A DNA stretch of 51,200 bases from Escherichia virus TH26, in sequence record MT446400.1, one strand, 5' to 3'. The position numbers and the translations under genes are program-made. The notes beneath the pieces are model-generated. The model searched no databases, was not told the DNA's origin, and saw only the letters and a list, made by a program, of their open reading frames with translations. Below are positions 41,105 to 47,266 of this stretch, in pieces (positions within the stretch are counted from its first letter, which is position 1; every line of letters starts with the position of its first letter).

Positions 41105-41341
41105 CTATAGTGCTTTCCAATCTGAGTCAAACAGTTCCTTTGGTCTTGAATAAATTACCGAATCAACACCAAAGAAGGTATGATTTCCATACTTCTTAAC
41201 TTCCTGGTACGCAAACCCATCCACCCAATTACCGCAGTGGGTTTTAATCTTTGTAGCAAACAGGATTCGATAGTAGTGGCCGCGTGGCTGGTGGAAGAGA
41301 ATATCTTCTGGCTTGATTGAGTTAATATTTAAATCACACAT
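41105..41341 (-). CDS. Hypothetical protein
   Basis: 78 aa ORF downstream of the ArdA-like gene. Confidence 0.35.
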   Translation of the reverse strand: MCDLNINSIKPEDILFHQPRGHYYRILFATKIKTHCGNWVDGFAYQEVKKYGNHTFFGVDSVIYSRPKELFDSDWKAL

Positions 41342-41891
41342 TTAAGAACAATACTCCTTCGGAGAAGATGTAGTCGCTTCCGTAATCTCGGACAATAGCT
41401 TCCCAATCAATATATGGTCTGAGATTATCTGGAACCTCAAACACATCATCTTGCTTTAAGTAGTCTGCAATTGAATCACAATGAGTAATGAACATATCAT
41501 TCAAACTGTCGACGGTGAAAATATCAATCTCACCACTACGGAATGCTGCAAGAATTATATCCAAATCGGTGTCAGCAAGCAGCTCATTGAACTTATCATA
41601 TTTACGAATGCTAAATAGGCCATTGGCAAAGCAAACTTCTGCTACATCCTCATCCATTGATTCGAGAATGTCGTAAGTCCCTGTTCCTGGGTACTCGATG
41701 CCATATTCTACGTGTAGATATTTTGACATGTCGAAGTCACAGAGACGCCATGCCAGACCATCAATCCACGCATCTGCAAATTCAGAACTGCTTTCGCCTT
41801 TGTAGACGTCTGTGTAGAAACGAACAAGCAAATTTTCGTCACGACGCCATGATTTCAGTTTCTCTACTGCTTGAATAATTTGGTTTTCCAT
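41334..41891 (-). CDS. ardA: ArdA-like anti-restriction protein (DNA mimic)
   Basis: ~185 aa from an internal ATG behind GGAGA; highly acidic; C-terminal EVPDNLRPYIDWEAIVRDYGSDYIFSEGVLF matches the ArdA signature (Tn916 ArdA ...LQNYIDYQAYGRDLDLSGTFIST..., as I recall it). Confidence 0.6.
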   Translation of the reverse strand: MENQIIQAVEKLKSWRRDENLLVRFYTDVYKGESSSEFADAWIDGLAWRLCDFDMSKYLHVEYGIEYPGTGTYDILESMDEDVAEVCFANGLFSIRKYDKFNELLADTDLDIILAAFRSGEIDIFTVDSLNDMFITHCDSIADYLKQDDVFEVPDNLRPYIDWEAIVRDYGSDYIFSEGVLFLNV

Positions 41892-41910
41892 CGGATTCTC
41901 CATTGATAAA

Positions 41911-42306
41911 TTATGCTGGAAGTTCGAAATGAGGTGCGTCAAGGAATTTAGCCCATTGCACAGGCTTACTAAACGACCTCTGCCATGTTCCACCCCAACG
42001 AATAGTAATTCCAAGCTCTTTTGCAGCTTTGAACATGTGTTCAGCCACAATCTGGAATCGTTCGAGGTCATTCCAGTCAATTGGATATGGTGCAATGTCT
42101 AAAGCGTTGCCTGACATGTGTCGGCTAACTGAAACTTTGGTTGCACCCTGCTTTAAAAGCTCTTGTTGACGTCCATAAGAGCGTAAACCTTCCAAAACAG
42201 TTACATCAAAAGGCATGGTTTCACACGCCCGTTTGAAAACTGCAACTAATGAAGGATTTACTCCCTTAAGTCGGTCTAAAGAACGTTGGCCGAGCTTAAC
42301 ATTCAT
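41911..42306 (-). CDS. Endolysin, peptidase M15 family (T5 Lys-like L-alanyl-D-glutamate endopeptidase)
   Basis: 131 aa; zinc-site pattern SRHMSGNALDIAPY...DAPHFEL; IDWNDLE and KELGI motifs collinear with T5 endolysin as I recall it. Confidence 0.8.
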   Translation of the reverse strand: MNVKLGQRSLDRLKGVNPSLVAVFKRACETMPFDVTVLEGLRSYGRQQELLKQGATKVSVSRHMSGNALDIAPYPIDWNDLERFQIVAEHMFKAAKELGITIRWGGTWQRSFSKPVQWAKFLDAPHFELPA

Positions 42307-42581
42307 TATTTGCCCTTTAACGCATCGTTTAAAGTGTTGTTTAACAGTGTGTTGAGGTTATCAAGTTCATCAAATGCTGCCTGAGCCTTGGCAACTTCAT
42401 CAACAAGTAATGCTCGAAGAACTGCATGCTCAACAAGCACCCATCCGTCGATACAGTCGATAAAAACTTTAACTTTATCAACTGGAGCATTTAAATCAAA
42501 GGCCGACAAGTCGGATTTGGCATTGTCCAACTTTCCTTTTGCCTTACCTAGTTCAACAGGAACTTGGTCTATCGAAATCAT
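42306..42581 (-). CDS. Hypothetical protein
   Basis: 91 aa ORF; 1-nt overlap with the downstream gene. Confidence 0.3.
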   Translation of the reverse strand: MISIDQVPVELGKAKGKLDNAKSDLSAFDLNAPVDKVKVFIDCIDGWVLVEHAVLRALLVDEVAKAQAAFDELDNLNTLLNNTLNDALKGK

Positions 42582-42805
42582 TGAAAATTATTTCCATTAG
42601 GGTGAATGGTTAATTTAAAAGATACAGACTCCCGATTGATTTCGGTTGTTCCTTCCACGAGGGCCGTAGACAGAATTACTGCACCTTTCCCTGCTCGCTC
42701 CAAGAATTTGATTACTCGGTCGCGAACTACTGACCAGTGACGATATTCGCAACTGGATTCAAGCAAGTATGATATCCCATCAATGGTAAATTCAGATGAC
42801 GTCAT
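42578..42805 (-). CDS. Hypothetical protein
   Basis: 75 aa ORF. Confidence 0.3.
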   Translation of the reverse strand: MTSSEFTIDGISYLLESSCEYRHWSVVRDRVIKFLERAGKGAVILSTALVEGTTEINRESVSFKLTIHPNGNNFQ

Positions 42806-43152
42806 TTAACTTCCTTACAATAGGTTGATAACAATGGAAATTTGGCATGAAAGAAGTCAATGTCACGATAAATCTGTAGCACCAAACGTTCCTCAGCGTC
42901 AACACCAACTAAGGCCAGCTTACTGCTCTGTGTATTATAGAACACTGTTGACATTGGGTTTGGATTTCCGTTATCTGGAATCTCAATCCAAGTACCTTCG
43001 TGCAAAGAAATTGTTGCAATGAGTGGCTGGCTCATTGTAATTGTTTCAACGGACATTTTGTATCCGCCACACTGGAAGCTGCGAACAGATGCTTCCGACT
43101 TGAATGCGAATACCCCAAACAAAATTGTGAGTGCAATGTATAAAGTTTTCAT
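42802..43152 (-). CDS. Small secreted/periplasmic protein (signal peptide)
   Basis: From internal Met: MKTLYIALTILFGVFAFKSEA then a ~95 aa mature domain containing Cys. Confidence 0.35.
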   Translation of the reverse strand: MKTLYIALTILFGVFAFKSEASVRSFQCGGYKMSVETITMSQPLIATISLHEGTWIEIPDNGNPNPMSTVFYNTQSSKLALVGVDAEERLVLQIYRDIDFFHAKFPLLSTYCKEVK

Positions 43153-43154
43153 GA

Positions 43155-45845: not shown

Positions 45846-46069
45846 TGCAATAACCCTTGTTCACAAATATCTGCAAATTCTGCTCGATGGTCACGCTGCC
45901 ATGTCCAGAATGCACCATTCATAGGAACGACAGCACCTTTACGGAATGCTGGAGAGATGCTCTCAGCAGATTTGGTAACTTTAAATTCCAAAGGTGAAAT
46001 AGCTTCACCCTCAATGATTAAGCCAACTGGCACGTAGTCTTTGTTGGAAGCAACACATTTAAATTTCAT
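45842..46069 (-). CDS. Hypothetical protein, paralog of 45615-45845
   Basis: 75 aa; MKFKCVAS...GLIIEGE...FWTW. Confidence 0.35.
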   Translation of the reverse strand: MKFKCVASNKDYVPVGLIIEGEAISPLEFKVTKSAESISPAFRKGAVVPMNGAFWTWQRDHRAEFADICEQGLLQ

Positions 46070-46322
46070 GGTATAAAACTCCTAATTCAGATTCTAATTT
46101 AAATTCACGGAAGAAATCCATTGTTACAAATCGGACTTTACCTTCGTCATCAACTACGTTACAGGAAATGTCGGAGTGGACCATGCGGCCTAGCTTCAAA
46201 GCAACTCCTGAAAGATTCGCTTCGCCAGTCCCTGAGATTACACGATAGATGCGATACGGTGTAAAGCCGCTTAAAGAGTTATTACGGCTTGGGACAATCA
46301 TCATGCCTGTTTTAGTAGCCAT
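46059..46322 (-). CDS. Hypothetical protein (start uncertain)
   Basis: ORF taken from the internal MATKTGMM start. Confidence 0.25.
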   Translation of the reverse strand: MATKTGMMIVPSRNNSLSGFTPYRIYRVISGTGEANLSGVALKLGRMVHSDISCNVVDDEGKVRFVTMDFFREFKLESELGVLYHEI

Positions 46323-46418
46323 AATAACTCCAACATTAAAAGTACATGAATGCGCCAATAGTGAGCAGCACAAGTGGAAACATCATAATACAGAATACTA
46401 ATTTCTTTACGATATCCA

Positions 46419-46592
46419 TTATTTCACCAGGAAGTAGAGTACAATAGCAACACCAACACATGCGATGATTGTTGGCATATAATTATCAATTTTACGATAT
46501 TTACGTTCGACTGGCTTCTTGCCTTCGATGGCATTCATCAGTTCTTGATGATTAATCTGTTGCATGAATGTGTTGAATTGCTGGTCGTTCAT
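46419..46592 (-). CDS. Small membrane protein (57 aa) not in the supplied ORF track
   Basis: Hand translation of the minus strand: ATG at 46592 behind GAGG, overlapping the upstream stop (ATGA); MNDQQFNTFMQQINHQELMNAIEGKKPVERKYRKIDNYMPTIIACVGVAIVLYFLVK with a C-terminal hydrophobic helix. Confidence 0.35.
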   Translation of the reverse strand: MNDQQFNTFMQQINHQELMNAIEGKKPVERKYRKIDNYMPTIIACVGVAIVLYFLVK

Positions 46593-46777
46593 TTTGCCTC
46601 CAGAATTTGATTTAATCCACTGAACACGATTTCCTCATGTTCGTCAGGTGTACACGCATTGATATATTCAAAGTCATAACCAACAAACTTCTCCGCCCAC
46701 TCCTGTAAACGAAGTAAAGAATTGAAGTACAGCCTTTGCTCTACACCATTTAACTTAGAGTAGACGATGAAGTCCAT
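46589..46777 (-). CDS. Hypothetical protein
   Basis: 62 aa ORF. Confidence 0.3.
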   Translation of the reverse strand: MDFIVYSKLNGVEQRLYFNSLLRLQEWAEKFVGYDFEYINACTPDEHEEIVFSGLNQILEAK

Positions 46778-46779
46778 GA

Positions 46780-47076
46780 TTAACCTCGTGCTTTAATGAA
46801 ATGAGGATGAGTAGCGATTGCCACAATTTTATTATGTTTGTCGTTTTGAATTGCAAGCCAAACATATCCAGGATGTGCAGCAGGTTTCCATACCAGACTC
46901 CCTCTTTCTCCATAAATCATCGTGTCAGCCAACATCACTGCCTTAGTTTTAATATTAACCAAAGCATGAGAAACAACACCATCACGATTGACATATTGAT
47001 ACAGTGCATAATTCATTTCAGAATCCTTTAGTGTATCCAACAGTTTTACGCAGAATGATTTCATCATTTGAATCAT
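46780..47076 (-). CDS. Hypothetical protein
   Basis: 98 aa ORF. Confidence 0.3.
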   Translation of the reverse strand: MIQMMKSFCVKLLDTLKDSEMNYALYQYVNRDGVVSHALVNIKTKAVMLADTMIYGERGSLVWKPAAHPGYVWLAIQNDKHNKIVAIATHPHFIKARG

Positions 47077-47266
47077 CTGGCTCTAATTCGACTTCAATAT
47101 TGACAACAATATTGTCGCCAAAAGTACATGCCTTACTTGAATCAAAGAACTTTACAGCATTGTACTTACCTGATTCATTTACTTTAATCCACTTCACAGA
47201 ACGAACAGTAAAGATTTGTCCATCTGGCAGGTCTTTGAAGTAAGCAGCTTTAATCACAGTATCCAT
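47018..47266 (-). CDS. Hypothetical protein (start at internal Met)
   Basis: First ORF downstream of the promoter-like motif at 47456-47483. Confidence 0.3.
   Translation of the reverse strand: MDTVIKAAYFKDLPDGQIFTVRSVKWIKVNESGKYNAVKFFDSSKACTFGDNIVVNIEVELEPDDSNDEIILRKTVGYTKGF

What the first reader, a model, noticed from the sequence alone, without database searches (positions are those of the whole stretch)
41105..47266. Early region of ~20 small ORFs likely to be a host-takeover / anti-defense module
The ~7 kb directly downstream of the RNAP gene and promoter cluster encodes about 20 proteins of 57-237 aa, most with no recognisable motif. Among them are an ArdA-like DNA mimic, a protein mimicking the host SSB tail, a signal-peptide protein, a small membrane protein and tandem paralogs. 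By analogy with T7 class I/II genes, the uncharacterised members are strong candidates for new inhibitors of host defense or metabolism.
Basis: inference. Interest (0 to 1): 0.6.

Follow-up and report, generated by a model that had tools for sequence, protein, structure and literature searches.

The report
Small-gene block of a phiEcoM-GJ1-like phage
The region is the known block of about 20 small genes that follows the RNA polymerase gene in phiEcoM-GJ1-like coliphages; it mixes an anti-restriction gene, an unusual DNA-binding replication protein, a lysis enzyme and many unknowns, so it is ordinary as a whole and only partly an anti-defence module.

Summary
Window 41105-47266 (minus strand) carries 20 tightly packed co-oriented genes of 39-233 aa, all with dN/dS below 1. 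They are homologues of gp03-gp23 of phiEcoM-GJ1 (Chaseviridae, Carltongylesvirus; 88-91% DNA identity).

- One gene (g18) is a divergent ArdA anti-restriction protein.
- The "SSB-tail mimic" (g11) does end in DFDDDIPF, identical to E. coli SSB. It belongs to a very large family without a Pfam model (about 2000 clusters) built as a small beta domain, a linker and an SSB-type tail. Distant members sit next to phage DNA polymerases, so it is most likely the phage's own non-canonical SSB, not a decoy.
- g17 is an M15 endolysin.
- The block lies behind the RNAP terminator and phage-promoter-like motifs, so it resembles T7 class II genes rather than class I early genes.
- Gene content and alleles are shuffled among close relatives. 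One accessory gene (g13) is shared with unrelated N4-like, phi92-like and jumbo phages. A neighbouring slot holds a Macro-domain gene in a relative. This fits an accessory, counter-defence-prone region.
- No function is shown for 16 of the 20 genes.

The host-takeover idea was already published for this genus. Interest is low to moderate.

The parts
48408..48435 (-). Terminator-like hairpin (12-bp stem followed by a T-run) just after the RNAP stop codon
48309..48326 (-). Phage-promoter-like 18-mer ACATTAGTTGGATGTGAA (0 mismatches), identical to GJ1 'putative phage promoter 1'
47459..47476 (-). Phage-promoter-like motif (2 mismatches) 190 nt upstream of g1; likely start of unit A (g1-g10)
47018..47266 (-). 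g1, 82 aa, unknown function (GJ1 gp03 homologue; its MLP1 homologue is annotated 'EaE protein'); restricted to Carltongylesvirus and Sabourvirus among the loci compared
46780..47016 (-). g2, 78 aa, basic, unknown function; alleles 58-88% identical among close relatives
46589..46777 (-). g3, 62 aa, acidic, unknown function
46419..46592 (-). g4, 57 aa, with a C-terminal hydrophobic (tail-anchor-like) transmembrane segment
46059..46322 (-). g5, 87 aa, member of the g5/g8/g10 paralogue family; conserved across Cleopatravirinae genera
45842..46069 (-). g6, 75 aa, tandem paralogue of g7
45615..45845 (-). g7, 76 aa, tandem paralogue of g6; highly divergent alleles (51-89% identity)
45261..45551 (-). 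g8, 96 aa, basic, distant paralogue of g10
45035..45268 (-). g9, 77 aa (GTG start), unknown function; absent from 3 of 8 close relatives
44751..45038 (-). g10, 95 aa (GTG start), paralogue of g5 and g8; conserved across genera
44693..44710 (-). Phage-promoter-like motif in the 128-nt g10/g11 gap; likely start of unit B (g11-g19). In relatives this slot holds Macro, NADAR-annotated or DprA-like accessory genes
44254..44622 (-). g11, 122 aa, non-canonical SSB-like protein: a beta-meander N-domain (residues 1-60) plus a helix, a Q-rich disordered linker, and a C-terminal DFDDDIPF tip identical to E. coli SSB
44122..44241 (-). g11b, 39 aa, rich in Cys and His (GJ1 gp16 homologue, 92% identity); overlaps the g12 start by 11 nt
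43431..44132 (-). g12, 233 aa, modular: variable N-terminal beta-rich modules and a conserved helical C-terminus (phrog_20048). Relatives have versions of 158 to 298 aa
43155..43376 (-). g13, 73 aa, accessory gene. Present in only 1 of 12 related loci, but has homologues in N4-like G7C, phi92-like and jumbo phages. Small alpha/beta fold (pLDDT 88)
42802..43152 (-). g14, 116 aa, with a signal peptide and a conserved Cys pair; probably periplasmic. Two allele classes (about 99% or 44% identity)
42578..42805 (-). g15, 75 aa, unknown function, conserved across genera
42306..42581 (-). g16, 91 aa, acidic, unknown function; replaced by other genes in most close relatives
41911..42306 (-). g17, 131 aa, M15 L-alanyl-D-glutamate peptidase endolysin
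41334..41903 (-). g18, 189 aa, divergent ArdA-family anti-restriction protein (pI 4.08, 40 Asp/Glu residues)
41105..41341 (-). g19, 78 aa, unknown function. It overlaps the ArdA gene by 8 nt, and the gene pair is adjacent in every genus examined
40750..41036 (-). Three phage-promoter-like motifs (41019-41036, 40878-40895, 40750-40767) in the non-coding stretch that closes the block

Best explanation
The region is the left-arm small-gene block of a Carltongylesvirus, a Chaseviridae myovirus with a T7-type RNA polymerase. It is orthologous to gp03-gp23 of phiEcoM-GJ1, and it serves several functions rather than one.

**Expression (inferred).** The block is probably expressed right after the phage RNAP is made, from two phage-promoter-like sites.

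**Unit A (g1-g10).** It encodes 57-96 aa proteins that are restricted to this lineage, include paralogue families, and are shuffled by recombination. They are probably host-interaction or accessory factors, but no function is shown.

**Unit B (g11-g19).**
- g11 is the phage's own single-stranded-DNA-binding protein, from a non-OB family. It has a small beta domain, a disordered linker and the E. coli SSB C-terminal tip. The proposal is that it coats phage ssDNA and recruits partners of the SSB tail.
- g11b is a 39-aa protein rich in Cys and His.
- g12 is a modular 233-aa protein.
- g13 is a horizontally spread 73-aa accessory protein.
- g14 is a secreted protein with a likely disulfide bond.
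- g17 is the M15 endolysin.
- g18 is a divergent ArdA. By homology it is a DNA mimic that blocks type I restriction enzymes. It is paired with a conserved partner gene, g19.

**Shown versus inferred.** Shown here: the genes are real, the block is orthologous to the GJ1 genes, g18 is ArdA-family through its orthologues, g17 is an M15 peptidase, the g11 tail is identical to the host tail, the breadth of the g11 family and its replication-module context, and the mosaic pattern. Inferred: expression timing, ssDNA binding by g11, and any host-directed activity of the unknown genes.
For: - **Orthology and synteny.** 88-91% DNA identity over 85-94% of the region to TH24, MLP1, phiEcoM-GJ1 and the PYps phages, with matching annotations.
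- **Real genes.** dN/dS is 0.02-0.43 for all 19 tested genes.
- **Promoter-like motif.** There are 8 hits against 0.11 expected. All are on the coding strand and all lie between genes, including 47476 before g1 and 44710 before g11. A terminator-like hairpin follows the RNAP gene.
- **ArdA.** Orthologues in three other genera score 31-44 bits against Pfam ArdA, above the curated cut-off of 27. ArdA structure 2w82 is the top PDB hit of the family profile. The protein is very acidic.
- **g11.** Only the linker and tip match E. coli SSB. The N-domain is modelled with pLDDT around 90. Its family has 2007 cluster representatives, and 85 of the best 148 end in acidic-x-[IVLM]PF. Distant members lie beside DNA polymerase, helicase and primase genes in phiVC8 and Acinetobacter phage DMU1. 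It is present in every Cleopatravirinae locus examined.
- **Endolysin.** Peptidase_M15_4 scores 36 bits against a cut-off of 25, and phrog_465 matches at E = 2.6e-54.
- **Mosaicism and accessory content.**
Against: - No expression data exist. The ICTV profile says Chaseviridae promoters are not yet identified, so the two-unit model rests on a motif.
- g18 itself scores 19.6 bits against Pfam ArdA, below the cut-off of 27. Only its C-terminal part aligns to ArdA, and no structure was predicted for it.
- For 16 genes there is no functional evidence of any kind.
Confidence: 0.72

Rival explanations
1. One reading: the block is a dedicated host-takeover and anti-defence module, and most of the uncharacterised ORFs are inhibitors of host defence or metabolism, analogous to T7 class I/II genes.
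For: - ArdA is present.
- Content is variable or accessory at g1-g4, g6-g9, g13 and g16.
- g13 is shared with unrelated virulent phages.
- A Macro-domain gene, and a gene annotated as NADAR, occupy the g10/g11 slot in relatives.
- G+C is lower here (0.39-0.42) than across most of the genome (about 0.44-0.46).
- There is a conceptual parallel with plasmid leading regions, which combine ArdA, SSB and many small ORFs (PMC11541004).
Against: - The block also contains a replication protein (g11) and the endolysin (g17).
- Nine genes are conserved across genera like core genes.
- None of the 16 unknown ORFs matches a plasmid by tblastn.
- None of the unknown ORFs that were searched against solved structures gave a significant match, anti-defence proteins included.
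- dN/dS gives no sign of positive selection.
Confidence: 0.25
2. g11 is a decoy rather than an SSB. On this view its only function is to display the host SSB C-terminal tip and titrate host proteins that bind it, such as Exo I, RecQ, PriA, the chi subunit or defence nucleases.
For: - The last 8 residues are identical to E. coli SSB.
Against: - The N-domain is the most conserved part. It has invariant aromatic residues W36, Y37, W38, W42 and F51.
- It is shared by about 2000 clusters with host-appropriate tail variants.
- Distant members sit inside replication modules next to DNA polymerase.
- No other gene is annotated as an SSB in the annotated stretches of the related genomes that were examined.
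Confidence: 0.12
3. g13 is an anti-CRISPR-like or similar small stoichiometric inhibitor of a host immune complex, spread by horizontal transfer among virulent coliphages.
For: - Its distribution is that of an accessory gene: 1 of 12 Chaseviridae loci, yet also G7C gp30.2, phi92 gp226, GAP32_009 and CBB.
- The model is confident and shows a small alpha/beta fold.
Against: - The family profile has no sequence-level similarity to any PDB chain.
Confidence: 0.1
4. The ORFs are chance open frames in a non-coding or regulatory leader region.
For: Most of them have no database annotation beyond 'hypothetical'.
Against: - dN/dS is well below 1 for every tested gene.
- Most starts have a Shine-Dalgarno sequence.
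- Stop and start codons are coupled.
- Synteny is conserved across genera.
Confidence: 0.01

Closest known systems
phiEcoM-GJ1 gp03-gp23 and the equivalent blocks of ST32, Mangalitsa, MLP1 and flopper (Chaseviridae, Carltongylesvirus)
   Same: Same gene order and orientation, with 88-91% DNA identity. The GenBank annotations also agree: anti-restriction protein, endolysin, SSB and many hypothetical proteins.
   Different: This genome has its own combination of alleles. g2, g7, g9, g15, g18 and g19 are 51-80% identical to GJ1. It carries g13, otherwise seen only in MLP1 among the 12 loci. It lacks GJ1 gp06 and gp08 and the accessory gene in the g10/g11 slot.
T7 class I and class II genes (gene 0.3 Ocr, 0.7, 1.2, 2, 2.5 and others)
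   Same: Both are left-end clusters of small genes beside a single-subunit RNAP gene, and both contain a DNA-mimic anti-restriction protein and the phage SSB.
   Different: Here the RNAP gene comes first and lies in the terminal repeat. The small genes follow its terminator and phage-type promoter motifs. The DNA mimic is ArdA-family rather than Ocr, and it is the 19th gene of 20 rather than the first. The SSB is not gp2.5-like. The virion is a myovirus.
ArdA (Tn916 Orf18, PDB 2w82; Pfam PF07275)
   Same: The acidic composition and the C-terminal motif PxxLxxYIDWEAIxxDY are shared. Orthologues pass the Pfam threshold, and 2w82 is the best PDB hit of the family profile.
   Different: g18 itself is below the Pfam threshold, and its N-terminal 100 residues do not align to ArdA. 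It is phage-borne and coupled to a conserved 78-aa partner gene.
Bacterial and plasmid OB-fold SSBs (E. coli SSB, F-plasmid SSB, HK620 SSB)
   Same: All have a disordered Gln/Pro-rich linker and the DDDIPF tip that recruits partner proteins (PMC5928155).
   Different: The DNA-binding domain is not the roughly 115-aa OB fold. It is a domain of about 60 aa with four strands, followed by a helix. It has no hit to the Pfam SSB model.
PC4-like, Whirly and Pur-alpha ssDNA-binding folds (including the T5 PC4 homologue 4bg7)
Anti-defence islands in plasmid leading regions
   Same: Both are DNA thought to enter the cell first, and both combine ArdA, an SSB with a host-type tail and many small ORFs of unknown function (PMC11541004).
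   Different: None of the 16 unknown ORFs is homologous to any plasmid. Expression would come from phage RNAP on double-stranded DNA, not from ssDNA promoters.

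Membership tests
Carltongylesvirus (Chaseviridae) left-arm gene block | Nucleotide identity and synteny with phiEcoM-GJ1 gp03-gp23, downstream of a T7-type RNAP gene | tested here: met
   88-91% identity over 85-94% of the region; the RNAP is 92-97% identical in protein sequence; gene order matches
Carltongylesvirus (Chaseviridae) left-arm gene block | A direct terminal repeat of about 3 kb that contains the RNAP gene | not testable with these tools
   The repeat is annotated in Mangalitsa, 4HA13 and Myduc. The window holds only one copy of the sequence.
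ArdA (PF07275) | Score above the Pfam gathering threshold (27 bits) | tested here: inconclusive
   g18 scores 19.6 bits. Orthologues 23-31% identical to it score 43.7, 33.8 and 31.4 bits.
ArdA (PF07275) | Strongly acidic surface typical of a DNA mimic | tested here: met
   pI 4.08, with 40 Asp/Glu against 15 Lys/Arg in 189 aa
ArdA (PF07275) | Three-domain elongated fold forming a dimer that mimics about 42 bp of B-DNA | not tested
The family profile aligns only to residues 70-149 of 2w82, at E = 0.03.
ArdA (PF07275) | Inhibition of type I restriction-modification enzymes | not testable with these tools
   Needs a plating-efficiency assay on EcoKI and EcoBI hosts.
Bacterial-type SSB (PF00436 / TIGR00621) | N-terminal OB-fold ssDNA-binding domain | tested here: not met
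Bacterial-type SSB (PF00436 / TIGR00621) | Disordered linker followed by an acidic tip ending in IPF | tested here: met
   DFDDDIPF is identical to E. coli SSB. The linker has pLDDT below 50.
PC4-like / Whirly / Pur-alpha fold | A curved four-stranded antiparallel sheet followed by a helix, forming dimers | tested here: inconclusive
DUF736 (PF05284) | Pfam match above the gathering threshold | tested here: not met
   One of ten distant family members scores 19.1 bits against a cut-off of 22.1. g11 and its close homologues give no hit.
T7 class I (host-RNAP-transcribed early) genes | Located upstream of or around the RNAP gene, behind strong sigma-70 promoters | tested here: not met
   The block lies downstream of the RNAP gene, its terminator and phage-promoter-like motifs. 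There are 27 sigma-70-like sites against 27.8 expected.
Phage accessory / anti-defence region | Gene content varies among close relatives, and genes are exchanged with unrelated phages | tested here: met
   This holds for g1-g4, g6-g9, g13 and g16, for the exchange of g13 with unrelated phages, and for the mosaic of synonymous divergence. It does not hold for g5, g10-g12, g14, g15 and g17-g19.
Phage accessory / anti-defence region | Contains experimentally validated anti-defence families | tested here: inconclusive
   ArdA is the only such family in this window. A Macro-domain gene occurs in a relative's slot. Nothing else matches.
Peptidase M15 endolysin (T5-type L-Ala-D-Glu peptidase) | Peptidase_M15_4 domain above the threshold | tested here: met
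   36.2 bits against a cut-off of 25; phrog_465 endolysin at E = 2.6e-54
AcrIF9-like anti-CRISPR (considered for g13) | Significant similarity in structure or sequence | tested here: not met

The most novel reading that the evidence does not exclude
g11 may represent an uncharacterised, very widespread class of mini-SSB that has no Pfam model. Its architecture is a beta-meander domain of about 60 aa, a short disordered linker and a host-matched SSB C-terminal tip. About 2000 clusters at 50% identity share it. On this reading it replaces the OB-fold SSB in several phage lineages (Chaseviridae, the Vibrio VP5/phiVC8 group, and Acinetobacter phages that carry an adenylosuccinate-synthetase gene beside it), and it plugs the phage replisome into the host's network of SSB partners. 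A secondary possibility is that g13 and some unit-A proteins are new defence inhibitors.
Probability: 0.4. Interest if true: 0.55.

Novelty: new member of a known kind. Interest (0 to 1): 0.3.

Why it matters
As a region, this adds one more allele combination to a block that has been sequenced and annotated since 2008, and whose possible host-takeover role has already been suggested. That matters little.

Two details are worth a specialist's time.
- The protein annotated as SSB is not an OB-fold SSB. It belongs to a large unstudied family that keeps the host SSB tail, which could show a different way to build a replicative SSB and to tap the host's SSB partners.
- The region is a recombination hot spot. 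It collects accessory genes such as g13, and Macro-domain or NADAR-annotated genes in relatives. It is therefore a reasonable short list for anti-defence screens in a phage group considered for therapy.

Tried and rejected
- **Family scans.** Pfam, NCBIfam and PHROGs scans of 19 proteins gave function only for g11, g17 and g18.
- **PDB sequence and profile searches.** Searches for g11, g13, g18, g19, g14 and g12 gave only the SSB tail and a weak ArdA hit.
- **tblastn of the 16 unknown ORFs.** There was no hit in 72,556 plasmids. In 50,697 phage records, only g13 leaves the Chaseviridae.
- **g19 as a DUF1653-like protein.** This was recalled from memory. No Pfam match was found for any of 7 orthologues, so it was dropped.
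- **g14 as an MliC/PliC-like or Spackle-like periplasmic lysozyme inhibitor.** There is no Pfam or PDB support, so it remains speculation only.
- **Rfam scan of 36000-51200.** It found only a tRNA outside the block.
- **AFDB50 fold search.** The library was unavailable.
- **The 2008 phiEcoM-GJ1 paper.** It is not held in the library.
- **Literature searches.** No functional study of any of these genes was found.

Full report
**Identity of the window.** All long ORFs are on the minus strand. The region 41105-47400 matches 45 phage records at 80-95% identity. The best are Escherichia phages TH24, MLP1 and phiEcoM-GJ1 and the Yersinia PYps phages, at 88-91% over 85-94% of the query. These are Chaseviridae of the genus Carltongylesvirus: myoviruses of about 52-54 kb that encode a T7-type single-subunit RNA polymerase. 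The RNAP gene lies at 48443-50629 and is 92-97% identical in protein sequence to those of the genus. In three annotated relatives the RNAP gene sits inside a direct terminal repeat of about 3.2 kb.

**The observation.** Start-codon and RBS inspection gives 19 genes between 41105 and 47266, here called g1 to g19. A 20th gene of 39 aa (44122-44241) was recovered by homology to GJ1 gp16. The 19 gene models cover 92% of the interval, and ten junctions overlap by 1-11 nt. Against orthologues in eight close relatives, every tested gene has dN/dS of 0.02-0.43, so these are real protein-coding genes. Two minor corrections apply: the block is 6.2 kb rather than 7 kb, and it begins 1.18 kb after the RNAP stop codon.

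**Transcription context.** The 20-mers annotated as 'putative phage promoters' in phiEcoM-GJ1 recur in this window. The core ACATTAGTTGGATGTGAA, allowing up to 3 mismatches, has 8 matches against 0.11 expected. All 8 are on the coding strand and all lie between genes:
- two between the RNAP gene and g1 (48326 and 47476);
- one in the g10/g11 gap (44710);
- three just after g19 (41036, 40895, 40767);
- one at 38598;
- one before the RNAP coding start (50636).

A 12-bp-stem terminator-like hairpin follows the RNAP gene. Sigma-70-like sites are no more frequent than in shuffled sequence, 27 against 27.8. By inference, the block forms two phage-RNAP units, g1-g10 and g11-g19. That corresponds to T7 class II genes rather than to host-transcribed class I early genes. 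This rests on a motif only. The ICTV profile states that Chaseviridae promoters have not yet been identified.

**What the proteins are.**
- *Family scans.* Pfam gives one hit above threshold: g17 is a Peptidase_M15_4 protein, that is, a T5-type L-alanyl-D-glutamate endolysin. NCBIfam adds nothing. PHROGs mostly return the family's own unknown-function clusters.
- *g18 (ArdA).* It scores 19.6 bits against Pfam ArdA, below the cut-off of 27. Its orthologues in Loessnervirus, Sabourvirus and Suwonvirus score 43.7, 33.8 and 31.4 bits. Eight of nine aligned orthologues hit ArdA. The family profile's best PDB match is ArdA 2w82. The protein is very acidic, with pI 4.08. It is therefore a divergent ArdA-family protein. 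Its fold and activity were not tested.
- *g19.* It overlaps g18 by 8 nt, and the pair is adjacent in every genus examined. No family could be assigned to it.

**The 'SSB-tail mimic', g11.** The last eight residues, DFDDDIPF, are identical to E. coli SSB. Only the Q-rich linker and this tip align to SSB, whether by single sequence or by profile. The first 60-80 residues are the best conserved part, with invariant W36, Y37, W38, W42 and F51. They have no Pfam model.

A profile of the N-domain alone finds 2007 cluster representatives at E of 0.001 or better among 1.84 billion proteins. Most are 75-150 aa long with the domain at the N-terminus. Of the 148 best, 85 end in acidic-x-[I/V/L/M]-P-F, and many others end in an acidic stretch followed by Phe. 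By tblastn the domain also occurs in the Vibrio VP5/phiVC8 group and in Acinetobacter and Burkholderia phages. In phiVC8 it lies between the helicase gene and the endonuclease, DNA polymerase and primase genes. In Acinetobacter phage DMU1 it lies directly after the DNA polymerase gene. It is present in all Cleopatravirinae loci examined.

The tail is thus a hallmark of the whole family, and the context is replication. The best reading is a non-canonical replicative SSB that uses the host-type tip to recruit partners. A pure decoy is less likely. Phage SSBs with a DDDIPF tail are known, for example in HK620 (PMC5928155). What is unusual here is the DNA-binding domain.

**Variation among relatives.** A tblastn matrix over 12 loci gives three groups:
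- g5, g10, g11, the C-terminal part of g12, g14, g15, g17, g18 and g19 are conserved across genera.
- g1-g4 and g6-g9 are confined to the genus or its nearest neighbours.
- g9, g13 and g16 are present or absent even among close relatives.

Synonymous divergence between the same two genomes jumps from 0.08 to more than 1 in adjacent genes. This indicates allele replacement by recombination rather than positive selection.

Paralogy is real. g6 and g7 are tandem paralogues (HHalign 99.8%, 28% identity). g5, g8 and g10 form a second, dispersed family.

The g10/g11 gap is empty here. In DE15 it holds a Macro-domain protein (35 bits against a cut-off of 22). In Pel53 it holds a protein annotated as DUF1768/NADAR. 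In flopper it holds a weak DprA-like protein. ADP-ribose-processing domains of this kind are plausible counter-defence genes, but that is an inference about relatives, not about this window.

**Other proteins.**
- g14 has a signal peptide and a Cys pair conserved in five of six orthologues, and it occurs in two allele classes.
- g4 has a C-terminal hydrophobic anchor.
- g12 is modular, with versions of 158 to 298 aa in relatives.
- Profiles of g12 and g14 match nothing in the PDB.
- None of the 16 unknown ORFs has a plasmid homologue.

**Verdict.** The block has mixed functions: replication (g11), lysis (g17), anti-restriction (g18) and a majority of unknowns. Some of the unknowns behave like accessory, exchangeable genes. 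It is also not new: the ST32 paper already described this cluster of small genes as reminiscent of the host-takeover genes of T4-type coliphages (PMC6266442). No functional study of any member was found. I rate it a new member of a known kind and of low to moderate interest. The g11 family is the most promising thread.

Noticed in passing
window 47467-48351 (minus strand), non-coding stretch between the RNAP terminator and g1: Thirteen of the window's 20 minus-strand GCATGT hexamers cluster in this region of about 0.9 kb. Several head a unit of about 23 nt resembling GCATGTnAATATTGTnACAATATT, which contains an inverted repeat. By analogy with Mangalitsa, the stretch spans the expected right edge of the terminal repeat (about 47534). 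It could be a set of regulator sites, an origin, or concatemer-processing signals.
   Followed up: partly
window 44122-44241 (minus strand): A 39-aa gene that the 40-aa ORF listing missed. It is 92% identical to GJ1 gp16 and has the sequence MKILCFIGLHNWEISHTNDYVTFWVCKSCSAMREEYHGK. Its Cys5, His10, His16 and Cys26-x-x-Cys29 pattern could form a mini zinc ribbon.
   Followed up: partly
window 44443-44622 (N-domain of g11) and proteins P0151-P0298: The domain defines a very large family of 60-160 aa proteins with no Pfam model: 2007 cluster representatives at E of 0.001 or better. Most of the best hits end in an SSB-type acidic-IPF tail, and some carry two tandem copies of the domain. One member weakly resembles DUF736 (19.1 bits, below the threshold).
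   Followed up: yes
L004 7866-8306 (DE15 gp19), L016 4504-4986 (Pel53), L002 4032-4553 (flopper gp11); the equivalent of window 44623-44750: The g10/g11 intergenic slot is empty in this window. In relatives it carries a Macro-domain protein, a protein annotated as DUF1768/NADAR, or a DprA-like protein. It is therefore a hot spot for accessory genes that may process ADP-ribose.
   Followed up: partly
window 41105-47266 compared with L001-L008: Synonymous divergence between the same pair of genomes varies from 0.08 to more than 1.5 between adjacent genes. Against GJ1, for example, g1 is 0.08, g2 1.02, g9 1.51 and g18 1.08. This is a fine-grained recombination mosaic.
   Followed up: yes
window 37414-37506 (minus strand): A tRNA gene (Rfam RF00005, 41.5 bits) lies downstream of the block.
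   Followed up: no
record PP952070.1 (L016): 'Staphylococcus phage Pel53', listed with host Staphylococcus hyicus, is 86.6% identical to this coliphage region and is classified in the Chaseviridae. A Gram-positive host for such a genome is surprising and may be a labelling or contamination problem.
   Followed up: no
window about 50989-51021: A homopolymer run of A (T on the other strand) about 33 nt long lies near the window end, upstream of the RNAP gene. It shows up as a poly-Lys/poly-Phe ORF artefact.
   Followed up: no
window 40100-41104: A second non-coding stretch of about 1 kb follows g19. It carries three phage-promoter-like motifs in 290 nt (41036, 40895, 40767) and a perfect sigma-70 consensus on the opposite strand (40965-40994, 12 of 12 positions).
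   Followed up: no
L013 2474-2728 (G7C gp30.2), L014 2504-2776 (phi92 gp226), L015 2501-2773 (GAP32_009): Homologues of g13 in three unrelated groups of virulent phages share the invariant motif GSFxNIxIDGRL. All are annotated as hypothetical, and all sit among other small unknown genes.
   Followed up: partly
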